A DNA stretch of 64,000 nt from Clostridia bacterium (lineage in GTDB: Bacteria > Bacillota > Clostridia > Oscillospirales > CAG-272): positions 17,980 to 81,979 of the forward strand of contig JAGCXA010000014.1 in assembly GCA_017961575.1 (NCBI GenBank), read 5' to 3'. The position numbers and the translations under genes are program-made. The notes beneath the pieces were generated by a model. The model was not told the DNA's origin. It worked only from the letters and a program-made list of their open reading frames with translations, and searched no databases. Positions within the stretch are counted from its first letter, which is position 1. The number at the start of each line of letters is the position of its first letter. Below, piece by piece: positions 10,471 through 54,019 of the stretch.

Positions 10471-10473
10471 TTT

Positions 10474-10512
10474 ACCGCGCCCCGGACGAAACCGGGGCGC
10501 GGTTCTTTTTTT
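10474..10512 (+). terminator. Rho-independent terminator after the yigZ-like gene
   Basis: Perfect 12-bp stem accgcgccccgg/ccggggcgcggt, 6-nt loop, then tcttttttt. Confidence 0.85.
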
Positions 10513-10609
10513 GAAAAACTGAAAAGTTTTTTCCGACAAAAAAAGCAAAAAAGAGGTTTCGCGCGTATATTATTGTTGAAAAACAGAAAGGAAGGGAGGA
10601 GTCGCTTCG

Positions 10610-38187: not shown

Positions 38188-40578
38188 ATGCGAAAAAAGA
38201 AAAATGGACGAAGAGGACTCCGCATTGTACTGTTCCTTTTTCTGTCCCTGTTTGCGGCGGCGCTGTTCACCCTGACGGTTCTGACGGCGCGGGCGGCGGC
38301 GGGGCTTGACCCGGAGGCGGACGTCGCCCTGCTCGACGATCTGTCTCGGACGGGTACGACCCGCCTTTTCTGTCGCGGAACAGGGGACGGGGAAGAGACG
38401 GATTTGGTCGAATACGAAACGGTCTACGCCGCCGAGAACCGGATCTGGTGCGCCGCCGACGAGATCCCCGACGTGGTGAAACACGCGCTGATCTCGATCG
38501 AGGACAAGCGTTTTTACAGTCACAACGGGGTCGATTGGCTCCGCACGGGAAAGGCGTTTCTCAACTACGTTTTCCGGTTCGATCCTCCGTTCGGCGGCTC
38601 GACGATCACGCAGCAACTCATAAAGAACGTTTCGGGGGAAAACGACGTCAAAAGCGAACGGAAGATCCGGGAGATCCTTCGCGCGCTCCGGCTTGAAAAA
38701 CGATATACGAAAGACGAGATCCTGACCTTCTATCTGAACGTCATTCCGCTCGCCAACCGTTGCTACGGGATCGGGGCGGCGTCCTCGTTCTATTTCGGAA
38801 AAACGCCGTCCGAACTCACGGCGGCGGAGGCGGCGACGCTCGCCGCGACGACCAACGCTCCGGCAAGATACGACCCGCTCAGGTATCCCGACGCCAACCG
38901 GGACAGGCGAAATCTGATCCTTACCAAGATGGAAGAATACGGGTATTTGACGAAGGAGGAGGCGGACGCGGCGCGGACGGAAGAGATCACGTTTACGGCG
39001 AAGCGCGGCGACGCCGGAACACGGATCGTTTCGTGGTATACAGAGGCGGTGCTCTCCGACGTGATCCGCGATCTTTCGGCGCGGCGGGGTCTTTCCGAGG
39101 GGGCGGCGACGGCGCTCGTTTATCGCGGCGGACTTGAAATCGAGATCTGCTGCGATCCCGCGATCCAACGGACGGCGGAACGGGTTTGCCGCGCGGCGGA
39201 TCGGAAAGAGGGCAATCTTGCGGTCTGGGTGGTCGATCCGTCGACGGGCGAGGTGCTTGCCGCGATCGGCGGCGCCGGGGAAAAGGCGGGGAACCGGGGG
39301 CTTCATTTCGCCGTCGACGCGCTCCGTCCGCCCGGCTCGGCGCTGAAACCGGTCTCGGTCTACGCTCCCGCGCTTCGCGCGGGTCTTGTCAACTGGGCGA
39401 CGGTGTTCGAGGATCTGCCGCAGTCGTATAATGACGGTGTCCCCTGGCCGAGAAACGCGAACGGCGTTTACGACGGTCGGATCGGGGTACACGAGGCGAT
39501 CGCGCGCTCGAAGAACACGGTCGCGGTCTCGGTTCTCTCGCTTCTCGGACGGCGCGCTTCGTTTGATTTTTTGAAAAACGAGTGCGGTTTCACGTCGCTT
39601 ATCGAGGACGAAACCGACGAATCGGGTCGCCGCCTGACCGATCTTTCCGACGCGCCGCTCGCGCTCGGGCAGTTGACCCGCGGGGTCTCCCTGCGGGAAT
39701 TGACCGACGCCTATTCGATCTTCGCCGGGGAAGGGATCCGAACGAAAGCGATCACTTATCGGACGGTGAAGAATCGCGCGGGCGAGATCCTTCTTTCGAA
39801 CAACGCCGCCCGCCGCCGCGTTCTCTCGTCCGCCGAGGCGGCGATCATGACCGGGATGCTCTCCGAGACGGTCGAGTACGGAACGGCGCGCAATCTGACG
39901 GTTTCGTCGGTCGTTCCGACGGCGGGGAAGACCGGGACGACGACGGGGGCGCGGGACAGATGGTTCGTCGGATATACCCCGAACCTCCTGTGCGGCGTGC
40001 TTTCGACCTCGGACGGGAGCGGTTCGGACGGCGTTCCGCGTTCTCCGCTTCCGGTCTTCGACGCGATCATGAAGGCGGCGCACGCGAAAATCCTCGACGG
40101 AACCGACGAACCGCCGACGTTCCCGATCCCGTCCGGGGTGGTCGCGCTCCCGTTCTGCCGCGACAGCGGCGATACGCCGGACGACGATTGCTCGCTCGAT
40201 CTGCGCGGGGATCGCGTCGCGTACGGACTCTTTACCGAGGACAACCGACCCGGAAAGGACTGCGCCCTGCATCGCCCGATCCTCTATGATCGCGTGCGCG
40301 GCGAATGGATCCCGGACGACGGGGAGGTTTCGCCCTTTCTAATCCGGTTTTCCGCCCCCGACGGGTCAAACAGAACGATCCCGGACGGGACCGAACCGAC
40401 CGACCGGGCGTACGATTACGACGTATTGCTCGGCGGTACGGATCCCCCGGAACCCGAGACGGAGGAACCCGACGGGGGGACCGCCGTTTCGGGCGGGATC
40501 GGGGAATGGGAACGGATCCGCTCGCGCGAGAGATTTCGCTTTGAACCGCGTTGGTACCGCCACTTTTTCGACCGTTAG
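38188..40578 (+). CDS. Class A penicillin-binding protein (PBP1A-type glycosyltransferase/transpeptidase)
   Basis: N-terminal TM. GT51 motifs EDKRFYSHNGVD and GGSTITQQL. Transpeptidase motifs PGSALKP (SxxK), SKN and KTGTT. Confidence 0.92.
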   Translation: MRKKKNGRRGLRIVLFLFLSLFAAALFTLTVLTARAAAGLDPEADVALLDDLSRTGTTRLFCRGTGDGEETDLVEYETVYAAENRIWCAADEIPDVVKHALISIEDKRFYSHNGVDWLRTGKAFLNYVFRFDPPFGGSTITQQLIKNVSGENDVKSERKIREILRALRLEKRYTKDEILTFYLNVIPLANRCYGIGAASSFYFGKTPSELTAAEAATLAATTNAPARYDPLRYPDANRDRRNLILTKMEEYGYLTKEEADAARTEEITFTAKRGDAGTRIVSWYTEAVLSDVIRDLSARRGLSEGAATALVYRGGLEIEICCDPAIQRTAERVCRAADRKEGNLAVWVVDPSTGEVLAAIGGAGEKAGNRGLHFAVDALRPPGSALKPVSVYAPALRAGLVNWATVFEDLPQSYNDGVPWPRNANGVYDGRIGVHEAIARSKNTVAVSVLSLLGRRASFDFLKNECGFTSLIEDETDESGRRLTDLSDAPLALGQLTRGVSLRELTDAYSIFAGEGIRTKAITYRTVKNRAGEILLSNNAARRRVLSSAEAAIMTGMLSETVEYGTARNLTVSSVVPTAGKTGTTTGARDRWFVGYTPNLLCGVLSTSDGSGSDGVPRSPLPVFDAIMKAAHAKILDGTDEPPTFPIPSGVVALPFCRDSGDTPDDDCSLDLRGDRVAYGLFTEDNRPGKDCALHRPILYDRVRGEWIPDDGEVSPFLIRFSAPDGSNRTIPDGTEPTDRAYDYDVLLGGTDPPEPETEEPDGGTAVSGGIGEWERIRSRERFRFEPRWYRHFFDR

Positions 40579-40739: not shown

Positions 40740-42086
<1,347 letters not shown>

Positions 42087-42102
42087 TCCGTTACAACGCG
42101 AT

Positions 42103-42144
42103 AAAAGAACCCCGCCCGGATGTCGGGCGGGGTTCTTTTTCTTT
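42103..42144. terminator. Bidirectional terminator between gdhA and comEC
   Basis: Perfect 12-bp stem gaaccccgcccg/cgggcggggttc with a 5-nt loop, flanked by ataaaa and tttttcttttt. Confidence 0.85.
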
Positions 42145-44331
42145 TTACGGGAGGAAACCGTCGGGGACCAACCGTTTCCGGCAGTAGGTTTTCAGATCCG
42201 GGGAGCCGCCGTCAAAGACGCAGGTCTTGTAAAACTCGCTTCCGGTGAAAACGGTCTTCACCGTTTCGGGGAGATCGAGTCGGAAAGAAAGGTACGGCGT
42301 CTCGCCGTGACACCCGAGAAAGACCGCCGTCGTTTTGTCGGGGAAGAGATCGTCGGTCGAATCGACCGGGACGTTCTCTCCGATATAGAGCAGACGGTCG
42401 TTTGCCGTTTTGAGCGAGATCATCAGCGGAACGGTCGGCGCGCCGTCGGTCGGCTCTGTCTTACGGAATTGCAGCGCGAAACCGATCGGCTCGCATTTGT
42501 CGGATACCGTAGAATAGTCGACCGATACCCGGTCGAGAAGCGAAACGAGCGCGTCGTACTCCCGTCGCTCGACGTTCTTCGGTTCGGTCAGAACGACCCG
42601 CCGGACGTAGACCGAGGAGAGCATGTCGCAAAAACCCTCCGCCGTTCCGGCGTCGTAGGAGGAGAAGACGTAGACGTCGACCTCCGACAGCCGAGCGGCT
42701 TTCAGTTCGTCTCGCAGCATGGGGAGGTTCCCGTCGGGCGTTCCAAGATCGACGCAGGCGGCGCGACGCCCGGAGCGCAGGACGATCAGATCGTCGTCGG
42801 ATCCGTCCGAGAGAAGCGCGATCCCGTTGCCTTTTTCGGGGAGAGCGAAGAGAAGAAACGCCGCGAGCGAGAGAACTCCGCAAACCGAGCAGAGGACGAT
42901 CCTCCGGCGTTTGGAGAGCGAGAGGAACGCGACGGCGAGCAGGGCAAGGAAGGGAAGCGCGCCCGCCGCGGTCAGGATCGGAGACGAGAACGAAAGGGCG
43001 GCGTGCGGAACCGACGCGATCCGGCGAAGAAGCGAAAGAAAGACGTCGCAGTAACGCGCGGCGAATGATCCGACGAACGGAAACGGGAGAACGAGTACGG
43101 CGACGGCAAGATACAGAAGCGCCTGGATCGGCAGGGAAAGAAGCAGGTTCGACGGGATCGAAAGAAGCGACAGTTCCCCGAAGAGCGCACAGGATACGGG
43201 AAGCGTGAAGAGAACGGCGAAGAGCGTCATCACGGCGTAGGAAGCGATCCGACGGGGAAGCAAGCGAAGGAACGTGCGTTTCTTTCGCGGAGCGCGGAAA
43301 AATTGCGCCGAGAGCAGGATCCCGAGCGTCGCGAGATACGAGAGCAGAAAGGAAACCGAAAAGATCAGATAAGGCGCGAAGAGGAGCATAACCGCGCCCG
43401 AGAGCGCAAGGGACGTGAGCGAATCGGGCTGGCGCTTCGCAAACCACGCCGCCTCGTAGAAGAAGAGCATCAGAGACGCGCGCAGAACCGACGGGGTAAA
43501 CCCGACGAGCGCGGCGTAGAAAAAGGCGAACAGAACGACGACGATCCCGACGGCGGGACGCGGAAGCCGAAGCCGCCGGAGCAAAAGTGAAAGCGCGGCG
43601 GAGAGGAATACGACGTGCATCCCGCTGACGGCAAGGGCGTGAGAGACGCCGGCGCGCCGGAACAGGATCCCTGCGCCGGTCGGAAGTTCGTCGGTCTCTC
43701 CGAGCAGGACCGCGACGAGAAGCCCTCCGTTTTCCCCCGCCACACGGGAGGACAGCGTCTCTTTGACCGACGACGCAAGCCAAAGAAACGGCGCGCGGAA
43801 ACTCGCCCGGTGTCCCGTGACAGCGACCTCTCCGGAGAGTTTCAGCCGCCCGCGGCATCCCTTGCCGTAAAGCCCGTTCCGGGCGTAAGCCGAGAGAGAA
43901 ACGACCGTTCCCTCTCCCGCGAGTTTGTCGCCCGGTTTGACCGCAAGACCGTCGGGAAGATCGACCGAAAGACGGCAAAAGAGTCGCCCGTCTTCGTCCT
44001 TCACGGATCCGACCGTCCAAACGTTCTTTTCCGCGTCGGTTATTTCAAGAGCGCAAAAGGAGTAGCGCGCCGTTTCATCGCGCCTTTTTTCGATCGCGCG
44101 GTCGGGAAGATCGGAGGAGAGAAATGAGAGTAAGGCGGCGAGCGAAAGAAGCAGAGCGGACGCGCCGAGAAGCGGGCGTCGCTTCTTCAAAAAGAACGGG
44201 ACGACGCCGAGAAGCAGCGCCATACCGAACAGGATCGCCTTCGCTGCGAGGGGAAGCACGGAAAGGAGAAAGAAGCCGGCAAAGAAAACGAAGAGCGCCG
44301 TCGCGAGCGGGCGCTTTTGCAGAAGGTTCAC
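42145..44331 (-). CDS. comEC: ComEC/Rec2 DNA internalisation channel protein with a degenerate C-terminal metallo-beta-lactamase-like domain
   Basis: 728 aa. N-terminal OB/DUF4131-like region and a competence-domain core (AGVSHALAVSGMHV). The C-terminal MBL-like region lacks the HxHxDH motif (FSSYDAGT at 42643-42666). Confidence 0.85.
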   Translation of the reverse strand: MNLLQKRPLATALFVFFAGFFLLSVLPLAAKAILFGMALLLGVVPFFLKKRRPLLGASALLLSLAALLSFLSSDLPDRAIEKRRDETARYSFCALEITDAEKNVWTVGSVKDEDGRLFCRLSVDLPDGLAVKPGDKLAGEGTVVSLSAYARNGLYGKGCRGRLKLSGEVAVTGHRASFRAPFLWLASSVKETLSSRVAGENGGLLVAVLLGETDELPTGAGILFRRAGVSHALAVSGMHVVFLSAALSLLLRRLRLPRPAVGIVVVLFAFFYAALVGFTPSVLRASLMLFFYEAAWFAKRQPDSLTSLALSGAVMLLFAPYLIFSVSFLLSYLATLGILLSAQFFRAPRKKRTFLRLLPRRIASYAVMTLFAVLFTLPVSCALFGELSLLSIPSNLLLSLPIQALLYLAVAVLVLPFPFVGSFAARYCDVFLSLLRRIASVPHAALSFSSPILTAAGALPFLALLAVAFLSLSKRRRIVLCSVCGVLSLAAFLLFALPEKGNGIALLSDGSDDDLIVLRSGRRAACVDLGTPDGNLPMLRDELKAARLSEVDVYVFSSYDAGTAEGFCDMLSSVYVRRVVLTEPKNVERREYDALVSLLDRVSVDYSTVSDKCEPIGFALQFRKTEPTDGAPTVPLMISLKTANDRLLYIGENVPVDSTDDLFPDKTTAVFLGCHGETPYLSFRLDLPETVKTVFTGSEFYKTCVFDGGSPDLKTYCRKRLVPDGFLP

Positions 44332-44434
44332 GGCGTTCTCCTTTCTCCCGAATGATAATACGACTGTATTCTACCATATTCGACAAAAAATGTCAAACGA
44401 AGAAAAGAGGTGAGGAGAAACGGGTTTGATTCGA

Positions 44435-44463
44435 TTGACAACCGAGGAGAAACGTGCTATAAT
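44435..44463 (+). promoter_or_regulatory. Perfect consensus sigma-A promoter upstream of the TerB/ATPase/helicase operon
   Basis: TTGACA (44435-44440), a 17-nt spacer, then TGcTATAAT (extended -10, TATAAT at 44458-44463). Confidence 0.7.
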
Positions 44464-44502
44464 AAAGTGATACGGAGAAAACGGCGGAAAGGGGGAAGCG
44501 CT

Positions 44503-46092
44503 ATGACCGACGAACGGGACCGATTCTGGGATCTGTCCGACCTGATCCCGAAAAAGAAAAAGCCGAGCGTCGCGCCTTTTTCCCACGCCGTTTCGTTTTC
44601 CGACGTGAAACCCGATTTTGACGCGGTGAACGACGGCATCGAGCCGATCGACGACCGAGGCGCGCTGACTTTTCCCCAGCTCCCCGCGCAGACGCGGGAG
44701 AGCGTTTCCTACGTTCCGACAAAGAACCGTTTGCTCTCGAACGTGACCGTGACGCGGTTTTCGGGCGGGTACCGGTTCTACGAGGAGTTCCGGCGCGACG
44801 CGCTCGCTGTGGCGAACCTGCCCGGTTTTCCCTGCGACTACGTTCCGTTCTATTCCTCTATGCCGCAGTACGCGCATCTCGACCCGGCGCAGAAACAGTA
44901 TTATCTGTGGTTCCGCGAGGCGGTAAAGCGCGGGGACGCGGTGCGCGCGGACGAGAGTTATCTTCGGCTTTTGATCTACGAGATCATCAATCTTCCCGAC
45001 GTGATCGAACCGAGCGACGGGGTCCTGCGGCTCATCACGCTCTGGCGGCTCTACCGCGAGCGTTTTCCGGGACTCAATATGCAGATGGCGGGATGGATCG
45101 CCGACTATTGCCTCGTGCATCGGCTCGCCTGTCCCACGGCGGAGCTCCGTCCGATCATGGATACCGTGATGAACGCCACCGATTTCCGCGAATTCTATCT
45201 CGGGGAGGCGGCGGAGGACGACGACGGCGGGATCGGCGCGCTGCTCTCCGCGCTCTCCGATTATCCGTACTCATCCGGGAAATACGCGACGGGAGAGCAC
45301 TCCGCGCTCTTCGGACGGCATATCCCGTCTTCGCTCTATCCGGTATTGAAGCGTCTGCTCGCAGAGGAAAAGTCCGAAAGGGACGGACGGATCAAACGGA
45401 CGCGGAAGGCGTTTATCGGCGCGCTCTGTTCCTACGCCGTGAAGTATGAGATCACGGTCGAATACCGTTCCTTCTCGGGTTCTCTTTCGCTCCGGCGACG
45501 GGTCACGGCGGCGGTCAAATACGCCGAGAACCGTCTTCGCTCGCTTTGCTCGATCCGCAGTCGGCTTGCCGTCTCCGGGCTCGACGATTGGGCGAAGGAC
45601 GAAATCGACGCCTATTTCGACCGACTTACTCTCACCTTGAAAAAAGAGAAGGAATATCGGGAGCGTCCAGCGTACGAAGCGCAGTACGACGCCGCCGACC
45701 GGACGATCTCTTTTTCTGGCGCCGACGAGATCGAACGCGAATCGTGGGAGAACGCCGAGCGGCTTGCCCCGCTCGAAGAAATACGGGAAACTCCGACGCG
45801 CGACGTCTCTGCGCCGTCGGTTCCGGACGAGACGCCGGACGGATCCGGCGGGGAAGAGATCGCGTTCTCTTCCGCGCAAAGGGCGTTCCTGTCGGCTCTG
45901 CTCACGGGGGATCGTGAGGCGGCAGCCCGCGCCGCGCGCGCGGCGGGTACGTCGCCCGACGGGATGGTCGAATCGCTCAACGAACGAGCGCTCGAAGAGT
46001 TCGGAGACGTCGTGATCGAAAGCACGGAAAACGGTTACGCCGTGATCGGGGATTATATGGAGGAGGTCGCCGGATGGACGGAAACGAAATAA
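44503..46092 (+). CDS. TerB-N / TerB-C domain protein (Shango TerB-component-like)
   Basis: ATG at 44503 follows GGGGGAAG and lies downstream of the promoter; the ORF-track ATG 44410 is upstream of it. TerB-N-like core YVPFYSSMPQYAHLDPAQKQYYLWFREAVKRG. TerB-C-like tail PDGMVESLNERALEEFGDVVIE. Confidence 0.75.
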   Translation: MTDERDRFWDLSDLIPKKKKPSVAPFSHAVSFSDVKPDFDAVNDGIEPIDDRGALTFPQLPAQTRESVSYVPTKNRLLSNVTVTRFSGGYRFYEEFRRDALAVANLPGFPCDYVPFYSSMPQYAHLDPAQKQYYLWFREAVKRGDAVRADESYLRLLIYEIINLPDVIEPSDGVLRLITLWRLYRERFPGLNMQMAGWIADYCLVHRLACPTAELRPIMDTVMNATDFREFYLGEAAEDDDGGIGALLSALSDYPYSSGKYATGEHSALFGRHIPSSLYPVLKRLLAEEKSERDGRIKRTRKAFIGALCSYAVKYEITVEYRSFSGSLSLRRRVTAAVKYAENRLRSLCSIRSRLAVSGLDDWAKDEIDAYFDRLTLTLKKEKEYRERPAYEAQYDAADRTISFSGADEIERESWENAERLAPLEEIRETPTRDVSAPSVPDETPDGSGGEEIAFSSAQRAFLSALLTGDREAAARAARAAGTSPDGMVESLNERALEEFGDVVIESTENGYAVIGDYMEEVAGWTETK

Positions 46093-47447
46093 AGGTGCCG
46101 AAGAGGATTCTGAACACTCTTTTGTCCTCTCTTGCCGCCGGGGTGGTGCCCCGGAGCGGCGCGCCCTATATCGCCATCGGAAGAAAGGAAGAGATCGCGT
46201 CGCTGCTCGGCAATCTCGACGAGGTTGACGAGGGGGGCGCGGCAGTCCGTTTTCTTATCGGACGGTACGGAAGCGGAAAGAGTTTTCTGATCCAATTGAT
46301 CCGCGGCTACGCCACCGATCGCGGATTTCTCTGCGCCGACGCCGACCTTTCGCCCGAGCGGCGGCTTTCGGGCGGCTCTGACGCAGGACTGTCCACCTAT
46401 CGCGAACTGATGAAGAACCTGTCGTCGAAGGCGTCGCCCGACGGCGGCGCGCTTCCGATCCTGCTCTCGCGCTATTACGCGACCTTACAGACGGATCTGC
46501 TCCGCGACGGTCTGACCCCGGAGGATCCCGGGTTCGTTTCCGGGATCGTCTCGTCGGTTTCCTCGATGCTTGACGAACTGGAAGGATACGTCGGCGGATT
46601 CGACTTCGCGCGCGTGCTCGCCGAATACTTCCGCGCGACGGCGGAGGACGACGGCGAACGGCGTTCCGCCTGCCTCAGATGGCTGCGCGGCGAGTTTTCG
46701 GGCAAGACCGAGGCGCGTTCCGCCCTCGGATTCCGCGTCGGATCGGTCATCGACGACGAAAACTGGTACGATTATCTGAAACTCTGGGCGATCCTTTCCC
46801 GCAAGATCGGGTATCGGGGACTCGTCGTGTTCATTGACGAGTGCGTGAATCTCTACAAGATCCCGAATCGGATCTCGCGCGAGGCAAACTACGAAAAATT
46901 GCTGTCGATCTTCAACGATACTTTGCAGGGACGCGCCAAATCGCTGTGTGTGATCTTCGGCGGAACTCCGCAGTTCCTTGAAGACACGCGCCGCGGTCTG
47001 TTCAGTTACGAGGCGCTCCGTTCGCGGCTTGCCGACGGACGGTTTTCGGAGGCGGGGTATCAGAACCTGTCCGCGCCGGTCATCCGTCTCCGCCGTCTCT
47101 CGGATAACGAACTGCTCGCCCTGATCCGTCGGCTGACCATCCTGTTTGAACAGAAGGAGGGGATCTCCGGCGTGATCTCGCCCGAACGGATGGAAACGTT
47201 TCTCCGCGTAACCCTTACGCGGGCGGGCGCCGACGAGATGGTGACGCCGCGCGAGATCATCCGCGACTACCTGACGCTGCTCTCGATCCTGCGCGACCAT
47301 CCCGACGCCGATTTTGACAAACTGATCGCGCCGACAGACCTTCCGCTTTCGTCCGAGGGCGAAGCGGACGCACCGCTGATCGGTTCGGAACCCGCCTCCG
47401 TCGGGGTGAAAAAACCGACGGTATCGGTCTTCGACCTTGACCTCTGA
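46074..47447 (+). CDS. DUF2791 / BrxD-like P-loop ATPase (Shango ATPase-component-like)
   Basis: The start overlaps the TerB gene end by 19 nt. N-terminal AAGVVPRSGAPYIAIGRKEEI, Walker A GRYGSGKS (46260-46283), Walker B LVVFIDE (46821-46841). Confidence 0.8.
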   Translation: MDGNEIKVPKRILNTLLSSLAAGVVPRSGAPYIAIGRKEEIASLLGNLDEVDEGGAAVRFLIGRYGSGKSFLIQLIRGYATDRGFLCADADLSPERRLSGGSDAGLSTYRELMKNLSSKASPDGGALPILLSRYYATLQTDLLRDGLTPEDPGFVSGIVSSVSSMLDELEGYVGGFDFARVLAEYFRATAEDDGERRSACLRWLRGEFSGKTEARSALGFRVGSVIDDENWYDYLKLWAILSRKIGYRGLVVFIDECVNLYKIPNRISREANYEKLLSIFNDTLQGRAKSLCVIFGGTPQFLEDTRRGLFSYEALRSRLADGRFSEAGYQNLSAPVIRLRRLSDNELLALIRRLTILFEQKEGISGVISPERMETFLRVTLTRAGADEMVTPREIIRDYLTLLSILRDHPDADFDKLIAPTDLPLSSEGEADAPLIGSEPASVGVKKPTVSVFDLDL

Positions 47448-47470
47448 ACAAAATCCGACGTGAAAGGGAG

Positions 47471-49732
47471 GTGTCTTTTGTGACCGAGGCGGATCGCCTG
47501 TTCGGGAGATTTCCCGATTTCATCAAGGAATTCATATACCGTCACGAGTGGACTCGCTTCCGCGACGTGCAACTGTCCGCCGCGAAGGTGCTCTTCGACT
47601 CCGACGACAACCTGCTCCTGTCCTCCTCGACGGCGTCGGGGAAGACCGAGGCGGTCTTTTTCCCGATCCTTTCCGAACTTTGTTCGGAAAACAAGGCGCC
47701 GAACGGCGTTTCGGTACTCTATATCGCCCCTCTGAAAAGTCTGATCAACGACCAGTTCGGGCGGATGGAGGAACTGCTTGACGCGAGCGGGATTCCGGTC
47801 TCGCGTTGGCACGGCGACGTCGGCGCGTCGCATAAGACCAAACTGCTGAAAGACCCGAAGGGGATCTTGCAGATCACGCCCGAATCGCTCGAAAGTATGC
47901 TGATGAACCGCTCGAACGATATTCCGCGCATCTTCGCGGGGCTTCGTTACGTCGTGCTGGACGAGATCCACACGATGATCGGTTCGGATCGGGGCAATCA
48001 GGTGATCTGTCTGCTCTGCCGGATGGCGCGTCTGATCGGTTCGTCGCCGCGACGCATCGGGCTTTCCGCGACGGTCGGCGATCTTGACGCCGCCGCCGAA
48101 TGGCTCGGAGCGGGGAGCGGACGGAACACGCAGGCGCCGCCCCCGCCGAAGTCGAAACTGCATTGGCGGCTCGGAATGGAGCATTTTTACTACCAGAATC
48201 CGAACGAGGAACAGCGCCCGCGCGCCGACGAAGCGGAAAAAGAAAAGCGATCCGGTGTCGCCGTGATCGACCCGGGATACGAATTTCTATACGATACCGT
48301 CAAGGACAAGAAGTGTCTCGTCTTCTCCAACTCGCGCGAGGAGACCGAGTACGTGACGGCGACCCTTCGTCAGATCGCGAAGAATCGGCGCGAGAACGAT
48401 ATTTTCCTCATCCATCACGGCAATCTGTCCGCCGCGCTCCGCGAGGACGCCGAGATGAAGATGAAGGACGAGGAGATCCGTCACGCCGTCACCTGCGCGA
48501 CGGTGACGATGGAACTCGGGATCGACATCGGTCGTTTGGAGCGCGTGGCGCAACTGAACGCGCCGACGACGGTCTCGTCCTTTCTGCAACGGCTCGGCCG
48601 TTCGGGACGGCGCGATCTGCCGCCCGAGATGATGATGGTCTTCCGCGAGGAATCGGCGCTTCCAAACACGCCTCTGCCCAAACTGATCCCGTGGGAACTG
48701 CTGCGCGGGATCGCGCTGGTGCAGCTCTACGCCGAGGAACGCTTCATCGAGCCGCCGTCAAAGAAGGAAATGCCGCTCAGTCTCGCGTTTCACCAGACGC
48801 TCAGCATCCTGTCTTCCGGCGGGGAACAAACCCCGAAGAATCTGGCGGAGCGCGTCCTGACCCTGCCGCCCCTGTCCAACATTCGTAAGGAGGATTACAG
48901 GGAACTGCTCGTTTCGATGATCAACCGCGAGTATCTTGAGTTTACCGAAGAAAAGACGCTGATCGTCGGACTTCGCGGCGAACGGTTGACCGGGAGTTTC
49001 AAGTTTTACGCCGTATTTCAGGACAGCGAGGACTTTACCGTCCGCTGCGGTTCGGACGAGATCGGCACCATCACGACGCCCCCTCCGGTCGGCGACCGAT
49101 TCGCGCTCGCCGGGCGCGTGTGGGAAGTGCTTGAAATCGAGGTCGAAAAGCACCTGATCTTCGTTAAGGGCGTCGACGGAAAGATGGAGATCTCCTGGCC
49201 GGGCGGCTTCGGAGAGATCCATACGCACGTTCTTGAAAAGATGCGCGACGTCCTGCTCGGCGACGCCGAATACCCCTACCTGATGCCGAACGCCGCCGAA
49301 CGGCTGGCGTCGGCGCGGAAACTCGCGAGAAGCACCGGGATGGACGAAAAACTCCTGATCCCGATCGGCGGGTCGTCCTACGTTCTGTTCCCGTGGCTCG
49401 GGACGCGCGCCTTCCGTACGGTCCGTCGGTATCTGGCGGCGAACGCCGGACAGTTCGGGATCTCCGACGTCTCGTCCGAGGGATGCTGTTTCATCACGTT
49501 CAAGGTGAAGGACGGAATGGGCGAAAAACTCGAAGCGACCCTGATCCGCAAACTGCAAAGCGAGGGGATCGACCCGCTGTCGCTCGTCGGGGAGGGGGAA
49601 TGCCCCGTTTTCGAGAAATACGACGACTGTCTGCCGCCCGAATTGCTCCGCCGGGCGTTCGCCCGCGACCGTCTTTCGCCCGACGAGGTGATCGCGCGGT
49701 TTTCACGGGAAGGGGGGTATTTCGGTGAGTGA
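47471..49732 (+). CDS. Lhr-like / BrxHI-like DEAD/DEAH-box SF2 helicase
   Basis: Motif I TASGKT (47630-47647), motif II DEIH (47960-47971), motif VI QRLGRSGRR, and an unassigned C-terminal region of ~320 aa. The start is GTG 47471 or, better spaced from GGGAGG, GTG 47480. Confidence 0.85.
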   Translation: MSFVTEADRLFGRFPDFIKEFIYRHEWTRFRDVQLSAAKVLFDSDDNLLLSSSTASGKTEAVFFPILSELCSENKAPNGVSVLYIAPLKSLINDQFGRMEELLDASGIPVSRWHGDVGASHKTKLLKDPKGILQITPESLESMLMNRSNDIPRIFAGLRYVVLDEIHTMIGSDRGNQVICLLCRMARLIGSSPRRIGLSATVGDLDAAAEWLGAGSGRNTQAPPPPKSKLHWRLGMEHFYYQNPNEEQRPRADEAEKEKRSGVAVIDPGYEFLYDTVKDKKCLVFSNSREETEYVTATLRQIAKNRRENDIFLIHHGNLSAALREDAEMKMKDEEIRHAVTCATVTMELGIDIGRLERVAQLNAPTTVSSFLQRLGRSGRRDLPPEMMMVFREESALPNTPLPKLIPWELLRGIALVQLYAEERFIEPPSKKEMPLSLAFHQTLSILSSGGEQTPKNLAERVLTLPPLSNIRKEDYRELLVSMINREYLEFTEEKTLIVGLRGERLTGSFKFYAVFQDSEDFTVRCGSDEIGTITTPPPVGDRFALAGRVWEVLEIEVEKHLIFVKGVDGKMEISWPGGFGEIHTHVLEKMRDVLLGDAEYPYLMPNAAERLASARKLARSTGMDEKLLIPIGGSSYVLFPWLGTRAFRTVRRYLAANAGQFGISDVSSEGCCFITFKVKDGMGEKLEATLIRKLQSEGIDPLSLVGEGECPVFEKYDDCLPPELLRRAFARDRLSPDEVIARFSREGGYFGE

Positions 49733-50489
49733 CATCTATTCGATCCTCGCGCCGTACTACGACGCCTGGAACGCCGAGATCGACTACGCCGCGTGGGCGG
49801 ACGGCGCGGAGGAATTCTTCCGCCGCTACGCGAAGGGGAAGGTCAGGGACGTGCTTGACCTTGCGTGCGGGACGGGGCGGATGACGGTAGAACTTGCGAA
49901 ACGCGGCTACGATATGATCGGGGTCGACCGCTCGCCCGAAATGCTCGACGCCGCCCGCGCGGCGGCGGAGAACGCCGGAGAAGAGGTCTCATCGCGGATC
50001 CTGTGGCTTTTGCAGGAGATGACTTCGTTCGAGCTTTACGGCACGGTCGACGCCGTGCTCTGCTGTCTCGACTCGGTCAATCATCTGACCGGGACGGGCG
50101 ACGTCGCGCGCTGCTTTTCGCTCGTACACAACTATCTGAACCCGGACGGGCTTTTCCTCTTCGACGTGAACGGCAAGCGCAAGTTCGAGTCGGTCTACGC
50201 CGAAAAGACCTATACCTACGACGCGCCCGGCGCCTACTGCGTCTGGGAGAACCGTTACCGTCGCGGACTGTGCGATTTTTCGATCACGCTGTTCCGGGAG
50301 GAAAAGAAGGGGATCTACCGCCGCTATGACGGGTTCGAGCGCGAGCGCCTCTATTCCTTGCGTACTCTGAAAAGGATCCTGGAAGAAAACGGCTTCGAGT
50401 GGCTCGGCGCCTATTCCGCGCCCTACGCGGGAGAGGTTTCCGGGGACGAAGAACGCTGGTATATCGCCGCGCGGGCGAAAAAGAACTGA
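49725..50489 (+). CDS. Class I SAM-dependent methyltransferase (Methyltransf_11/25-like)
   Basis: GTG start overlaps the helicase stop by 8 nt (GTGAGTGA). Motif I VLDLACGTGR, followed by MIGVDRSPEML. Target unknown. Confidence 0.8.
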   Translation: MSDIYSILAPYYDAWNAEIDYAAWADGAEEFFRRYAKGKVRDVLDLACGTGRMTVELAKRGYDMIGVDRSPEMLDAARAAAENAGEEVSSRILWLLQEMTSFELYGTVDAVLCCLDSVNHLTGTGDVARCFSLVHNYLNPDGLFLFDVNGKRKFESVYAEKTYTYDAPGAYCVWENRYRRGLCDFSITLFREEKKGIYRRYDGFERERLYSLRTLKRILEENGFEWLGAYSAPYAGEVSGDEERWYIAARAKKN

Positions 50490-50501
50490 AAGAGAATCAA
50501 G

Positions 50502-51437
50502 ATGGAAAACGAAAAATCATACGGATCGCGCCTGTTGCGTGGGATGACGAGGGACGGCAGCGCCCGGATCGTCGTCGCCGACGCCCGCGGGATCGTCGAT
50601 CACGCGCAGAAGGTCCATAAAACCGCGCCTACGGCGACGGCGGCGCTCGGACGGCTTCTGACCGCCGCGTCGATGCTTGGGAGTCTCCTGGGCGAAAAAA
50701 CCGACTCTCTGACCGTTACGGTCGCGGGGGACGGACCCGCCGGACGGCTTCTTGCCGTTTCCGACTACGTCGGGTGCGTCAGGGGATATATCGAGAATCC
50801 GGCGGTCGATCCGCCGCGGAAACCGAACGGAAAACTCGACGTCGGCGCCGCCGTCGGTCGCGGCTCTCTCACCGTGATCCGCGAGATCGGGGAAGGCGAA
50901 CGCCATACCGGGACGGTGGAACTCGTATCGGGCGAGATCGCCGAGGATTTCACGCGCTATTTCGCCGAGAGCGAGCAGATCCCGTCGGTCTGCTCTCTCG
51001 GGGTGCTCGTCGCCCCGGACTGCAGTTGCCGCGCCGCGGGCGGGGTTCTGATCCAACTGCTCCCGTTCCCCGATCCCGAAACCGTAGACAAGATCGAAGC
51101 GAACGTCCCGAAGATCTGCAATATCTCGTCGCTCCTCGACGGGGGAAAAACGCTCGAAGAGATAGCGGCTCTCGCGTTTGACGGGATCGAGTTCGATCCC
51201 TTCGACACGATCGACGTCGATTACGTCTGCACCTGTTCGCGGGAGCGGATGAAACGCGGGATCCGCTCGCTCGGAGAGAAGAAGATCGCGGAACTCTTCG
51301 ACGAAGAGGAGAAGGAAAACGGAAAGCGCGAGATCACGGCTGAGTGCCGTTTTTGCGATAAAAAATACCGCTTCACCGAGGCGGACTTCCGCCCGGTGAA
51401 ACGATCCGATGAAAAATCCAAAGGAGAGAAAAAATGA
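50502..51437 (+). CDS. hslO: Redox-regulated chaperone Hsp33
   Basis: 311 aa. C-terminal zinc switch CTCSRERM ... CRFCDKKYRF. Confidence 0.93.
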   Translation: MENEKSYGSRLLRGMTRDGSARIVVADARGIVDHAQKVHKTAPTATAALGRLLTAASMLGSLLGEKTDSLTVTVAGDGPAGRLLAVSDYVGCVRGYIENPAVDPPRKPNGKLDVGAAVGRGSLTVIREIGEGERHTGTVELVSGEIAEDFTRYFAESEQIPSVCSLGVLVAPDCSCRAAGGVLIQLLPFPDPETVDKIEANVPKICNISSLLDGGKTLEEIAALAFDGIEFDPFDTIDVDYVCTCSRERMKRGIRSLGEKKIAELFDEEEKENGKREITAECRFCDKKYRFTEADFRPVKRSDEKSKGEKK

Positions 51438-52666
51438 GCCAACTGAAAGGCAACGCCCTCGTCGGTCAGTCGGGAGGTCCGACCGCCGCCATCAACGCCA
51501 GTCTCGCCGGGGTGATCCGCGGGGTTCTGGCGCACCGGGACGCGATCCCCGAACTCTACGGCATGCGGAACGGGATCGAAGGGTTCCGGCAGGGCGACGT
51601 CGTATCTTTGCTTCCTCTTTTCGACGGAGAAAACAAACTCCGTCAGCTCGAACAGACTCCCGCGGCTGCGCTCGGCTCCTGCCGGAAGAAACTGCCGGAT
51701 CCGAAAAAGGAACCGGCGTTCTACGAGGATCTCGTCGCCCGTTTCAAAGAGAAGAATATCCGCTATTTCTTCTATATCGGCGGCAACGATTCGATGGACA
51801 CGGTGGCGAAACTCTCGGCGTATCTTGCTAACGCCGATTACGAAATGCGCGTCGTCGGCGTCCCGAAGACCATCGACAACGACCTCGCCGATACCGATCA
51901 CACGCCGGGCTTCGGTTCGGCGGCAAAGTACGTGGCGGTCACGCTCTCCGAGATCGTCCGCGACTGCGCGGTTTACCGCGTTCCCGCCGTCACGATCGTC
52001 GAGATCATGGGGCGTGACGCCGGATGGCTCACCGCGTCCGCCGCGCTTCCGGGCGCGATCAACGGCGAGGGCGTCGACCTGATCTACCTGCCGGAACGCC
52101 CGTTTACCTTCGAGCGGTTCACAGAGGATCTGAAAACGGCGTTTTTAAAGCATCCGAACCTCGTCGTGGCGATCTCCGAGGGGATCCGCTCGCCCGAGGG
52201 ACGCTATATCGGCGAGGGCGCGCAGAGCGGCGCGCTCGACGCCTTCGGTCATAAGTACCTCGCCGGGGCGGGCAAAGTGCTGGAATCGTTCGTTAAGGAA
52301 ACCTTCGGATGCAAGGTCCGTTCGTTTGAACTCTCGCTTCCGCAGCGGTGCGCTTCGCACCTCGCGTCGGATACCGATCTCACCGAGGCGGCAAAACTCG
52401 GCGACGCCGCGGTCGGAGCGGCGGTCGCGGGGAAGACCGCCGTGATGGCGGCGCTCGAACGCAAGCCGGGCGACGTTTACGGATGCGAAGTCGTTTTCCG
52501 TCCCGTAGATCGGATCGCCAACGCGATCCGGCGCGTACCCGACGAGTTCATAAACGACCGCGGCAACGGGATCACCCCCGCCGGGATCGCGTATCTTGCG
52601 CCGCTGATCCGCGGCGAGCGCAAGGTCGAATACCGCGACGGACTCCCGATTCACGCAATTATCTGA
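51434..52666 (+). CDS. pfp: 6-phosphofructokinase, long (PPi-dependent-type) form
   Basis: ATG overlaps the hslO stop (ATGA). Motifs GQSGGPTAAINASLAG, IGGNDSMD and PKTIDNDL. The 410-aa length fits the long PFK clade. Phosphoryl donor not determinable by eye. Confidence 0.85.
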   Translation: MSQLKGNALVGQSGGPTAAINASLAGVIRGVLAHRDAIPELYGMRNGIEGFRQGDVVSLLPLFDGENKLRQLEQTPAAALGSCRKKLPDPKKEPAFYEDLVARFKEKNIRYFFYIGGNDSMDTVAKLSAYLANADYEMRVVGVPKTIDNDLADTDHTPGFGSAAKYVAVTLSEIVRDCAVYRVPAVTIVEIMGRDAGWLTASAALPGAINGEGVDLIYLPERPFTFERFTEDLKTAFLKHPNLVVAISEGIRSPEGRYIGEGAQSGALDAFGHKYLAGAGKVLESFVKETFGCKVRSFELSLPQRCASHLASDTDLTEAAKLGDAAVGAAVAGKTAVMAALERKPGDVYGCEVVFRPVDRIANAIRRVPDEFINDRGNGITPAGIAYLAPLIRGERKVEYRDGLPIHAII

Positions 52667-52694
52667 CTTTATTTTCAGGCAGATAGTATTTTCG

Positions 52695-52742
52695 CAAAAA
52701 AAGAAGGCGACCGATGAGATCATCGGTCGCCTGATCTTTTTA
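52695..52742. terminator. Bidirectional terminator between pfk and ftsZ
   Basis: Perfect 12-bp stem aggcgaccgatg/catcggtcgcct with a 4-nt loop, flanked by caaaaaaag and gatcttttta. Confidence 0.85.
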
Positions 52743-52762
52743 TACCGTATTGCGCGGAAGGA

Positions 52763-53944
52763 TCACGGCTTTTTGGTTTTGTTCAGGATGTTCAGAATAT
52801 CGTCGAGGTCGATCTCGTCTTCAAACGGCGGAACCGAACCGTCGCCCGCCGATTTACCGCCGAAAGCGTCGTCGGCATTCTCTCCGCGATCCTCGGTTTT
52901 TTCAACGGGCTCGGTCGACGTCGCGTCGGTTTCGCCGTCCTCGGTTTGCTCGCCCGCGTCGGTCGCCGGAGCCGCGGGTTTTTCCTTATCGAACCCGGTC
53001 GCGATGATCGTGATCCGAAGCTCGTCCTGCAACGTGGGATCAAACGCGGCGCCCCAGATGATGTTCGCCTCGGGATGCGCGGCGTTCGCGATCATACTCG
53101 ACGCCAGATACACGTCGTCGAGCGAGATGTCGGGGGCGGCGGTAAAGTTGACGAGAACTCCGGTCGCGCCCGAGATCGAGGTTTCGAGCAAGGGGGAAGA
53201 GATGGCTGTCGTCGCGGCGATCGCCGCTTTGTCCTCGCCTCTCCCGGTCCCGACGCCCATATGGGCGAATCCGGCGTCCTTCATTACCGAAACGACGTCG
53301 GCAAAGTCGACGTTGACAAATCCGGGGATATTGACGATCTCGGACACGCTCTGCACGCCCTGACGGAGAACGTCGTCGGCGGTCTCGAAGGCGTTTGCGA
53401 GGGTGATCTTGCCCTCGGAGACCTGTTTTAACCGTTCGTTCGGAATGACGATCAGAGAGTCGACGTACTGGCGCAGGATCTCGATCCCGGCGTCCGCCTG
53501 GGTCATCCGGCGTTTTCCCTCGAACAGGAAGGGCTTGGTCACGATCCCGATGGTCAGGATGTTCATTTCCTTCGCGATCTTCGCGACGACGGGCGCCGCG
53601 CCCGTTCCGGTTCCGCCGCCCATACCCGTGGTGACGAACACCATATCCGCCCCCTCAAGCAGGTGACGGATGTCCTCGATGCTCTCCTCGGCGGAACGCC
53701 GCCCGATTTCGGGATCGGAACCGGCGCCGCGTCCGTTCGTGATCTTTTCACCGATCACGAGTTTCTGGGACGCGCTCGAAAAGGAAAGCACCTGCGCGTC
53801 GGTGTTGACGGCGATGAAATCCACCCCGCGGATGTTGGTGGAGATCATACGGTTCACGGCGTTGTTACCGCCGCCGCCGATGCCGACGACCTTGATCTTG
53901 ACCCCGTTGTCAATGACTTCGTTGTATTCAAACGCCATTGTCAC
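52763..53944 (-). CDS. ftsZ: Cell division protein FtsZ
   Basis: Tubulin signature [14 protein letters not shown]-terminal [17 protein letters not shown], and a C-terminal conserved peptide DDILNIL. Confidence 0.97.
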
Positions 53945-53990
53945 ACCTCCGCAAAAAATTGGTGGAAAGAGTGTATATTTCTACAATGAT

Positions 53991-54019
53991 ATAATACAAA
54001 ATCTTCCGAATAAATGCAA
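53991..54019 (-). promoter_or_regulatory. Candidate sigma-A promoter for ftsZ
   Basis: On the minus strand, TTGCAT (54019-54014), 17 nt, then TATTAT (53996-53991), within a 150-bp AT-rich gap. Confidence 0.4.

What the first reader, a model, noticed from the sequence alone, without database searches (positions are those of the whole stretch)
49725..50489. SAM-dependent methyltransferase translationally coupled to the helicase (GTGAGTGA overlap): possible fourth component
The 254-aa class I methyltransferase starts at a GTG 8 nt before the helicase stop. Its translation is therefore likely coupled to the helicase gene. As I remember them, canonical Shango descriptions are three-gene systems. 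A methyltransferase could provide self-marking or effector or small-molecule chemistry. It could equally be a housekeeping gene that the triad inserted next to, since it resembles small-molecule/Methyltransf_11-type enzymes rather than N6A/C5 DNA methyltransferases. I see no DPPY/NPPY or PCQ DNA-MTase motifs.
Basis: partly seen in the sequence, partly recalled or inferred. Interest (0 to 1): 0.55.

Follow-up and report, generated by a model that had tools for sequence, protein, structure and literature searches.

The report
Housekeeping methyltransferase beside a Shango cassette
The methyltransferase that overlaps the Shango helicase gene is an ordinary housekeeping enzyme that keeps its place next to the chaperone gene hslO in dozens of related gut and rumen bacteria with or without Shango, so it is a neighbour caught in the same operon and not a fourth defence component.

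Summary
A 254-aa class I SAM methyltransferase (49725-50489, GTG start) overlaps the stop of the Shango helicase SngC by 8 nt (GTGAGTGA). Congeners keep this overlap.

The MTase-hslO pair is present in 65 of 73 related genomes. 46 of 69 with enough upstream DNA have no triad; there MurC, a YerC-like gene, IspE or LplA sits tightly upstream of the MTase. Some relatives have ispE joined directly to the MTase, others have ispE-promoter-SngABC-MTase, so the indel unit is the three-gene cassette alone. In 72 Shango loci outside this lineage (64 metagenome contigs, 8 plasmids) the gene after SngC varies and is never this MTase.

Triad proteins co-diverge with MTase and HslO (rho about 0.8), which fits one old insertion inherited vertically.

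The enzyme is an end-to-end homologue of B. subtilis YqeM. Its predicted fold matches small-molecule and peptide methyltransferases (TylM1, PsmD, CcbJ), not DNA methyltransferases.

A conserved consensus promoter lies before SngA, and the only strong terminator follows pfk. This predicts a six-gene transcript, so the coupling is operon architecture, not shared function. The finding is ordinary and of low interest.

The parts
44435..44463 (+). Consensus extended -10 sigma-70 promoter (TTGACA-17 nt-TATAAT, TG before the -10 hexamer). It belongs to the Shango cassette.
   Evidence: 12 of 12 match. The same perfect or near-perfect promoter lies directly upstream of SngA in nearly all triad-bearing relatives, including distant ones.
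44503..46092 (+). sngA (TerB_N/TerB_C protein, 529 aa). The mechanical ORF start at 44410 lies upstream of the promoter and is not the real start.
   Evidence: Pfam TerB_N and TerB_C. PADLOC SngA 7e-45. Gene call of 529 aa in the identical contig L001. The promoter, SD and ATG are conserved.
46074..47447 (+). sngB (BrxC_BrxD/DUF2791-type ATPase, 457 aa). It overlaps sngA by 19 nt.
   Evidence: Pfam PF10923 1e-144. PADLOC SngB 4.7e-159.
47471..49732 (+). sngC (DEAD/DEAH, Lhr-like helicase, 750-753 aa). The public gene call starts at 47480.
   Evidence: Pfam DEAD and Helicase_C. PADLOC SngC 2e-233. Gene call in L001.
49707..49717 (+). Shine-Dalgarno-like G-rich run inside the 3' end of sngC, 7 nt before the MTase start.
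   Evidence: Sequence GGGAAGGGGGG. Congeners have GGAGG-like sequences at the same place.
49725..49732 (+). 8-nt overlap GTGAGTGA: MTase start codon GTG and sngC stop codon TGA.
   Evidence: It is conserved as ATGAnTGA or ATGCCTGA in congeners. More distant relatives have a 4-nt ATGA overlap, short gaps, or an intervening YerC-like gene.
49725..50489 (+). YqeM-like class I SAM-dependent methyltransferase (254 aa). It is a housekeeping gene and not part of Shango.
   Evidence: Pfam. PDB 1y8c 4e-27. AlphaFold pLDDT 92.7. Foldseek matches are TylM1/PsmD/CcbJ-type enzymes. 29% identity end to end with B. subtilis YqeM, E 1e-32. Conserved with hslO in triad-less relatives.
50502..51437 (+). hslO (Hsp33 redox chaperone), the conserved partner of the MTase.
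   Evidence: Pfam HSP33 5e-83. NCBIfam HslO 263 bits, above the cutoff of 244. Directly downstream of the MTase in 65 of 73 loci.
51434..52666 (+). pfk (phosphofructokinase). It overlaps hslO by 4 nt and is the last gene of the predicted transcript.
   Evidence: Pfam PFK 2.8e-51. Synteny in relatives.
52705..52732 (.). Strong bidirectional intrinsic terminator between pfk and ftsZ. It is the only strong terminator downstream of the sngA promoter.
   Evidence: 12-bp stem with 8 GC pairs and T-runs on both strands. The other terminator-like sites in 44000-53000 have weaker stems (5-9 pairs), and their number is at the chance level of the shuffles.

Best explanation
The gene at 49725-50489 encodes a housekeeping class I SAM-dependent methyltransferase of the YqeM/1y8c type. 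It has a Rossmann domain plus a C-terminal beta-sheet lid, like small-molecule and peptide methyltransferases. Its substrate is unknown.

In a large group of gut and rumen Clostridia it forms a stable gene string, MTase-hslO-(sod)-pfk. It is always an internal operon gene packed tightly against whatever same-strand gene lies upstream.

In one lineage a Shango cassette was inserted immediately upstream of it, between ispE and the MTase. The cassette consisted of its own consensus promoter plus sngA, sngB and sngC. It has since been inherited vertically and lost again in a few sublineages.

The sngC stop and the MTase start became fused: ATGA in many species and an 8-nt overlap in the window's genus. 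MTase, hslO and pfk are therefore now most probably transcribed from the Shango promoter as a six-gene mRNA. MTase translation starts at an SD inside sngC, possibly by coupling or re-initiation.

The linkage is architectural (operon capture). Breaking the sngC/MTase junction would orphan hslO and pfk from a promoter, which would explain why the downstream flank is constant while the upstream flank varies.

Status of the steps:
- Shown here: gene identities, overlap, synteny, presence/absence pattern and co-divergence.
- Inferred: the single transcript, the coupling and the direction of the events.
For: 1. The MTase-hslO pair exists without the triad.
- hslO directly follows the MTase in 65 of 73 loci. 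The triad is absent in 46 of 69 loci with at least 2.5 kb of upstream DNA.
- In those loci MurC (about 20 loci), a YerC/TrpR-like gene (28 loci), IspE or LplA lies on the same strand next to the MTase. Spacing is usually under about 60 nt and some pairs overlap.

2. The indel is clean.
- In L019 and L031 only about 10 nt with an SD separate the ispE stop from the MTase ATG.
- In ten triad-bearing loci with co-directional ispE the order is ispE, 68-315 nt, then SngABC-MTase. In two of these (L021, L057) a YerC-like gene separates SngC from the MTase.
- The variable unit is therefore promoter plus three genes.

3. The linkage is not obligatory at the gene level. In L021 and L057 a YerC-like gene sits between SngC and the MTase. 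In L014-16, L028, L045 and L077 there are gaps of roughly 13-30 nt.

4. Inheritance is vertical.
- Pairwise distances of SngB and SngC correlate with those of MTase and HslO (Spearman 0.75-0.84; 0.81-0.84 when the window genus is excluded).
- Triad-less L019, L023, L026 and L031 nest within the triad-bearing clade in 75% of bootstraps.

5. The association is absent outside the lineage. Of 72 Shango loci with at least 800 bp of downstream DNA, none has this MTase or hslO after SngC, and the neighbours are highly variable. The 72 are 8 annotated plasmids from Firmicutes, Fusobacteria, Proteobacteria and Archaea plus 64 metagenome contigs.

6. The enzyme type fits a non-DNA substrate. The Foldseek top 50 are PsmD, SeMT, CcbJ, TylM1, KedS8, CalS10, CypM, NmbA and the uncharacterised 1y8c, 3d2l and 1wzn, with no DNA MTase among them. 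The protein is an end-to-end homologue of B. subtilis YqeM, the last gene of the constitutive yqeG...yqeL-yqeM operon (PMC5080769).

7. There is no sign of a functional shift. 73 of 246 MTase columns are at least 90% conserved with the same residue in triad-bearing and triad-less lineages. Only 2 columns discriminate the groups, similar to the hslO control.

8. The transcript prediction rests on two points. The promoter before SngA is perfect and conserved, and nothing comparable is conserved in the 380 nt before the MTase (L012 alone reaches 10 of 12). The only strong terminator follows pfk.

9. Published Shango systems are three-gene units that suffice for defence when cloned (PMC10250203; bioRxiv 10.1101/2022.05.11.491447).
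Against: Within the lineage that carries this SngC clade, every triad examined is next to the MTase-hslO string, although the upstream flank varies (comEC, ispE, DUF951/ruvAB, EamA). This holds for 23 MTase-anchored loci and 4 of 4 SngC-anchored look-ups. A functional link in this clade would give the same pattern, so comparative data alone cannot strictly exclude it.

The substrate of the MTase is unknown. Co-transcription and coupling are predicted, not measured.

The trees are neighbour-joining on two proteins with moderate support (75-77%), so the order of gain and loss is not firmly resolved.
Confidence: 0.85

Rival explanations
1. The MTase has been co-opted as a true accessory (fourth) component of this particular Shango lineage. 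It might methylate a small molecule, a Sng protein or a nucleic acid as part of sensing or of protecting the host.
For: The adjacency is constant and usually overlapping across a deeply diverged clade. It persists through several rearrangements of the upstream flank. Co-transcription is predicted.
Against: The MTase-hslO pair is retained wherever the triad is absent or lost. MTase conservation is the same in triad-bearing and triad-less lineages. A YerC-like gene intervenes in L021 and L057. None of 72 Shango loci elsewhere has it. Three genes suffice for Shango defence in published tests (PMC10250203). hslO and pfk are just as constantly linked, and nobody would call them defence genes.
Confidence: 0.05
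2. The site upstream of the MTase is an integration hotspot, and Shango cassettes were acquired there repeatedly and independently. The adjacency then reflects site preference rather than a single ancestral event.
For: Presence and absence are patchy inside the inner clade: L019, L023, L026 and L031 lack the triad. The empty sites are very clean. Defence systems are known to occupy core hotspots (PMC10250203).
Against: SngB and SngC distances track MTase and HslO distances (rho about 0.8). The junction (ATGA) and the promoter are shared across species. No integrase, tRNA or repeat was noted at the borders in the gene lists. No other defence system was seen occupying the site in 46 triad-less loci.
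Confidence: 0.07
3. The MTase is a DNA methyltransferase that marks self DNA for the helicase system, by analogy with BREX, DISARM or restriction-modification.
For: SngB and SngC are related to BREX BrxD and BrxHI. There is a partial PADLOC hit to the MADS protein mad2, 1.5e-17.
Against: The mad2 hit covers only the SAM-binding core (residues 36-158 against profile positions 288-406 of 492). There is no motif IV (D/N/S)PP(Y/F/W) and no PC motif. No target-recognition domain is present. The fold neighbours are all small-molecule or peptide MTases. The protein is a homologue of housekeeping YqeM.
Confidence: 0.02

Closest known systems
[quoted passage not shown]
   Same: Homology runs end to end: 29% identity, E 1e-32 to YqeM, and 1y8c at 4e-27 with TM 0.84-0.87. 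The size is the same, about 250 aa. Motif I LDLACGTG is shared, as is the C-terminal lid. Like YqeM it is the tightly packed or overlapping downstream gene of a housekeeping operon: rsfS and yqeM overlap by 4 nt.
   Different: The genomic partners differ. Here the gene lies before hslO-pfk and after sngC, not after rsfS. Orthology is not proven at 29% identity. The function of YqeM is itself unknown.
Shango anti-phage system (SngA TerB protein, SngB ATPase, SngC helicase)
   Same: The three genes upstream of the MTase match all three PADLOC Shango profiles, in the canonical A-B-C order with overlapping or short junctions.
   Different: Canonical Shango is a mobile three-gene unit found in defence islands or on plasmids, with variable neighbours (PMC10250203). 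Here the cassette is fixed at one chromosomal site and inherited vertically, and it is fused to a housekeeping operon. The MTase does not belong to the system.
TylM1/DesVI/PsmD/CcbJ-type small-molecule methyltransferases
   Same: The predicted fold matches with Foldseek E from 1e-16 to 1e-22 and TM 0.72-0.88. The domain layout is the same: a Rossmann domain plus a beta-sheet auxiliary domain.
   Different: Sequence identity is only 15-24%. No biosynthetic gene cluster surrounds it. The substrate is unknown.
Methylation-based defence systems (R-M, BREX PglX, MADS mad2)
   Same: It is a SAM-dependent enzyme encoded next to defence-type ATPase and helicase genes. It gives a partial profile hit to mad2.
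   Different: It lacks the catalytic DNA-MTase motifs and a target-recognition domain. The hit is limited to the SAM-binding core. The gene persists without the defence genes.

Membership tests
Shango (as a fourth component) | The gene co-occurs with SngABC across independent Shango lineages | tested here: not met
   None of 72 Shango loci outside the window's lineage has this MTase family or hslO downstream of SngC. PADLOC defines only SngA, SngB and SngC.
Shango (as a fourth component) | The gene is gained and lost together with the triad | tested here: not met
   46 of 69 related loci have the MTase without the triad. The ispE-MTase empty sites contrasted with ispE-SngABC-MTase show that the indel unit excludes the MTase.
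Shango (as a fourth component) | The gene is required for anti-phage activity | not testable with these tools
   Published three-gene constructs protect without any MTase (PMC10250203). This organism's system has not been tested.
Shango (the upstream triad itself) | TerB-domain SngA, DUF2791/BrxC_BrxD ATPase SngB and DEAD/DEAH helicase SngC, in one co-directional cluster | tested here: met
   Pfam and PADLOC hits: SngA 7e-45, SngB 5e-159, SngC 2e-233. Order is A-B-C with a 19-nt overlap and a 23-nt gap.
Class I (Rossmann-fold) SAM-dependent methyltransferase | Motif I GxGxG-type SAM-binding loop, acidic residue after beta-2, seven-stranded Rossmann-like fold | tested here: met
   VLDLACGTG at residues 42-50 and the conserved D68. 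Methyltransf_25 and Methyltransf_11 score above their gathering thresholds. The model has pLDDT 92.7 with alternating beta/alpha elements. Top PDB matches are all class I MTases.
DNA methyltransferases (N6A/N4C or C5) | Catalytic motif IV (D/N/S)PP(Y/F/W) or a PCQ/ENV pair, plus a target-recognition domain | tested here: not met
   The 254-aa sequence has no such motif. No DNA MTase appears among the top 50 structural matches.
YqeM-like methyltransferases | Full-length homology to B. subtilis YqeM | tested here: met
   BLASTP gives 29% identity over residues 4-254 against 2-244, E 1e-32. The B. subtilis gene is the one after rsfS (yqeL) (operon as described in PMC5080769).
YqeM-like methyltransferases | Orthology: conserved rsfS-yqeM context or a reciprocal best hit | tested here: inconclusive
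   The 64-kb window contains no rsfS, nadD or yqeK. A genome-wide reciprocal search was not possible.
MADS mad2 | Full-length match to the mad2 profile | tested here: not met
   The hit covers only profile positions 288-406 of 492, which is the SAM-binding core.

The most novel reading that the evidence does not exclude
In this clade of gut and rumen Clostridia the Shango cassette is no longer a mobile defence island. It has become a domesticated, constitutively promoted part of a six-gene stress and housekeeping operon (SngABC, YqeM-like MTase, Hsp33, PFK). The MTase and/or Hsp33 have become functionally integrated with the triad. The MTase might, for example, methylate a small molecule or protein that tunes the TerB-ATPase-helicase machine during stress or infection.
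Probability: 0.06. Interest if true: 0.6.

Novelty: already known. Interest (0 to 1): 0.15.

Why it matters
The main value is as a caution. A tight, even overlapping and evolutionarily conserved junction between a defence gene and its neighbour does not make the neighbour part of the system. A presence/absence comparison across relatives resolves the question quickly, and this locus should not be entered in catalogues as a four-gene Shango variant.

A secondary point may interest defence-system evolution. This Shango cassette has its own perfectly conserved consensus promoter. It has stayed at one chromosomal site over deep divergence, is more conserved than its housekeeping neighbours, and probably now drives expression of hslO and pfk.

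Tried and rejected
- PADLOC gave a hit of the MTase to MADS mad2 (1.5e-17). I rejected it because it covers only the SAM-binding core.
- The best NCBIfam names, daptide MTase (85 bits against a cutoff of 175) and glycine/sarcosine MTase, are far below their cutoffs. No function was transferred from them.
- Rfam found no RNA family in 42000-54000.
- I looked for an internal promoter in front of the MTase. The window scan found none. Relatives score at most 6-10 of 12, and nothing is conserved.
- I clustered the genes downstream of SngC in a different SngC clade to look for any recurrent fourth gene. The largest cluster covers only 7 of 72 loci and lies on the opposite strand. One weak class-I-like ORF sits 1.8 kb downstream in L165, E 3e-5.
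- I searched for this MTase family on plasmids. There are 40 records. None was seen beside Shango in the listed rows, and none of the 30 listed records is among the 40 listed SngC-bearing records. The hits are YqeM-like genes or biosynthetic-cluster MTases.
- I tested for group-specific residues that would indicate neofunctionalisation in triad-bearing lineages. There were no more than in the hslO control.
- I looked for rsfS, nadD and yqeK in the window to establish YqeM orthology. They are absent.
- The one genome-collection scan and the one metagenome scan were both used. I therefore could not run a fully SngC-anchored census of the window's own SngC clade beyond four look-ups.
Full report
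**What is there**

The window region reads as follows on the + strand unless marked:
- PBP1A (38188-40578)
- gdh (40752-42086)
- comEC (42145-44331, minus strand)
- sngA (44503-46092)
- sngB (46074-47447)
- sngC (47471-49732)
- a 254-aa methyltransferase (49725-50489)
- hslO (50502-51437)
- pfk (51434-52666)
- ftsZ, murG and ftsW on the minus strand

PADLOC profiles identify the triad as Shango: SngA 7e-45, SngB 4.7e-159, SngC 2e-233.

The MTase starts at GTG 49725, and sngC stops at TGA 49730-49732. It is the only usable start before an invariant N-terminus. In congeners it is an ATG at the same position, with the overlap preserved. A G-rich Shine-Dalgarno-like run lies 7 nt upstream.

**What the enzyme is**

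It is a class I SAM-dependent methyltransferase (Methyltransf_25 and Methyltransf_11). No curated NCBIfam model is reached.

Its closest solved relatives by sequence are three structural-genomics proteins of unknown function: 1y8c, 3d2l and 1wzn.

A confident AlphaFold model (pLDDT 92.7) matches these three. It also matches small-molecule and peptide methyltransferases with a Rossmann domain plus a beta-sheet lid: PsmD, SeMT, SgMT, CcbJ, TylM1, KedS8, CalS10, CypM and NmbA. No DNA methyltransferase appears in the top 50.

The sequence has no (D/N/S)PP(Y/F/W) motif and no PC motif. A PADLOC hit to MADS mad2 covers only the SAM-binding core.

A tblastn search of plasmid-labelled records found a B. 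subtilis homologue lying directly after rsfS. That gene is yqeM, the last gene of the yqeG...yqeL-yqeM operon (PMC5080769). The alignment is end to end, 29% identity, E 1e-32. The enzyme is thus a YqeM-like housekeeping methyltransferase of unknown substrate. Orthology is not proven.

**The key comparative test**

I fetched 80 genomic loci encoding relatives of the MTase (42-78% identity) from gut and rumen Clostridia/Oscillospiraceae MAGs. I added contigs carrying closer relatives. I then mapped the window's proteins onto all of them.
- hslO follows the MTase directly in 65 of 73 loci with enough downstream DNA.
- The Shango triad lies upstream in only 23 of 69 loci with at least 2.5 kb of upstream DNA. 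It is absent in 46.

In the triad-less loci the same-strand gene next to the MTase is one of several:
- MurC (about 20 loci)
- a roughly 100-aa YerC/TrpR-like protein (28 loci)
- IspE
- LplA

Spacing is usually under about 60 nt, and some pairs overlap. The MTase is thus habitually an internal operon gene pressed against whatever precedes it.

The most telling contrast concerns ispE.
- In L019 and L031 only about 10 nt containing an SD separate the ispE stop from the MTase ATG.
- Ten triad-bearing relatives with co-directional ispE have ispE, then 68-315 nt, then SngA-SngB-SngC-MTase. In two of these (L021, L057) a YerC-like gene lies between SngC and the MTase.

The unit that comes and goes is therefore the promoter plus three genes. 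The MTase lies outside it.

**History of the association**

On a neighbour-joining tree of MTase+HslO, about 39 species form a triad-less clade, recovered in 77% of bootstraps.

The triad-bearing species form the remaining grade. The triad-less L019, L023, L026 and L031 nest among 14 triad-bearing species in 75% of bootstraps.

Pairwise distances of SngB and SngC correlate with those of MTase and HslO. Spearman coefficients are 0.75-0.84, and 0.81-0.84 without the window genus.

This fits one old insertion followed by vertical descent and occasional loss. It does not fit repeated acquisition.

Four SngC-anchored look-ups in the same SngC clade (68-71% identity) all showed SngABC-MTase-hslO-(sod)-pfk-metK. 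Their upstream flanks differed: ispE, DUF951/ruvAB and EamA, against comEC in the window.

The SngC/MTase junction varies between species:
- 8-nt overlap in the window's genus
- 4-nt ATGA (or GTGA) overlap in nine species
- 17-nt overlap in L063
- gaps of roughly 13-30 nt in six or seven species
- an intervening YerC-like gene in L021 and L057

**Outside the lineage**

Eight annotated plasmid-borne Shango triads were inspected, from Clostridium, two Paenibacillus, Cetobacterium, Klebsiella, Aeromonas, Natrinema and Methylobacterium. The gene after SngC is an ABC-type ATPase, a hypothetical protein, a small hypothetical followed by a PLD-like protein, a recombinase, an IS5 transposase, divergent hypotheticals, a metallophosphoesterase or an integrase.

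A metagenome scan seeded with a diverse SngC alignment returned 80 further loci from a different SngC clade.

Taking both sets, 72 loci have at least 800 bp after SngC. None encodes this MTase family or hslO there. The largest downstream gene cluster covers 7 loci and lies on the opposite strand.

The literature describes Shango as a three-gene system that protects when cloned alone (PMC10250203; bioRxiv 10.1101/2022.05.11.491447).

The only qualification is that within the one lineage that inherited the insertion, the association is constant by descent.

**How the arrangement probably works**

A perfect extended -10 promoter (TTGACA-17-TATAAT with TG) lies at 44435-44463. This is inside the mechanical sngA ORF, so the real sngA start is ATG 44503. 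The same promoter is conserved upstream of sngA in nearly all triad-bearing relatives. No promoter is conserved in the 380 nt before the MTase.

The only strong terminator after it is the bidirectional hairpin at 52705-52732, behind pfk.

Gene junctions from sngA to pfk are -19, +23, -8, +12 and -4 nt.

I infer a six-gene transcript in which the cassette's promoter now drives MTase, hslO and pfk. That would select against any rearrangement at the sngC/MTase junction, and would explain a constant downstream flank beside a variable upstream one without any shared function.

MTase residues conserved at 90% or more are the same in triad-bearing and triad-less lineages: 73 shared columns and 2 discriminating ones, comparable to the hslO control. 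There is no sign of co-option.

**Verdict**

The 'fourth component' reading is not supported.

The residual possibility of clade-specific functional integration cannot be excluded by comparison alone. I rate it at about 5%. The finding is ordinary.

The more interesting by-product is the behaviour of the Shango cassette itself. It is fixed at one site, vertically inherited, more conserved than its housekeeping neighbours, and carries an invariant consensus promoter. This is recorded under things noticed in passing.

Noticed in passing
window 44435-49732; loci L012-L034, L045, L063, L077, L178-L183: The Shango cassette is inherited vertically at one chromosomal site across deep divergence (HslO only 45-62% identical to the window). 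SngB and SngC (68-70% mean pairwise identity) are more conserved than the flanking housekeeping MTase (57%) and HslO (62%). SngA evolves fast (31-39% identity to the window). This is unusual for a defence system and hints at domestication or strong constant selection.
   Followed up: partly
window 44435-44463 and 44410-44503: A perfect extended -10 consensus promoter lies inside the longest sngA ORF (GTG 44410). The real start is ATG 44503 (MTDERDRFWDL). The promoter is conserved 12 of 12 in at least 14 distant relatives.
   Followed up: yes
L057 4826-7032: SngC is split between two reading frames near residue 223. This is either a pseudogene (the triad decaying while YerC-MTase-hslO stay intact) or an assembly error.
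   Followed up: no
L090 8247-10793; L091 8224-9609; L092 8267-9174: Plasmid-borne Shango triads of Clostridium estertheticum and Paenibacillus have different tightly linked downstream genes. These are an 848-aa ABC-ATPase-domain protein 18 nt after SngC, a 461-aa hypothetical protein, and a small ORF plus a PLD-like protein. They might be lineage-specific accessories.
   Followed up: no
L185 3640-6735 (Monoglobus pectinilyticus): The closest plasmid-collection homologue of the MTase (34% identity) sits 3 nt after a UvrD-like helicase, in a nifS-nifU-mnmA housekeeping string. This is a second, unrelated helicase-MTase adjacency, and it again looks like operon packing.
   Followed up: no
L184 5645-11299 (B. 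subtilis) compared with window 42145-50489: B. subtilis yqeM lies next to the comER/comEA/comEB/comEC genes. In the window, comEC is the gene immediately upstream of the Shango cassette and MTase, on the opposite strand. This may be a remnant of an old yqeM-comE neighbourhood.
   Followed up: no
L178-L183 (about 9970-10710) compared with window 51434-51437: In other genera a gene with a Sod_Fe_C (superoxide dismutase) domain sits between hslO and pfk, and metK follows pfk. The window's genus lacks sod there, and hslO overlaps pfk by 4 nt. The MTase neighbourhood (Hsp33, SOD, SAM synthetase) has an oxidative-stress and SAM flavour.
   Followed up: no
window 52705-52732: A strong bidirectional intrinsic terminator (12-bp stem, T-runs on both strands) is shared by the convergent pfk and ftsZ genes.
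   Followed up: no
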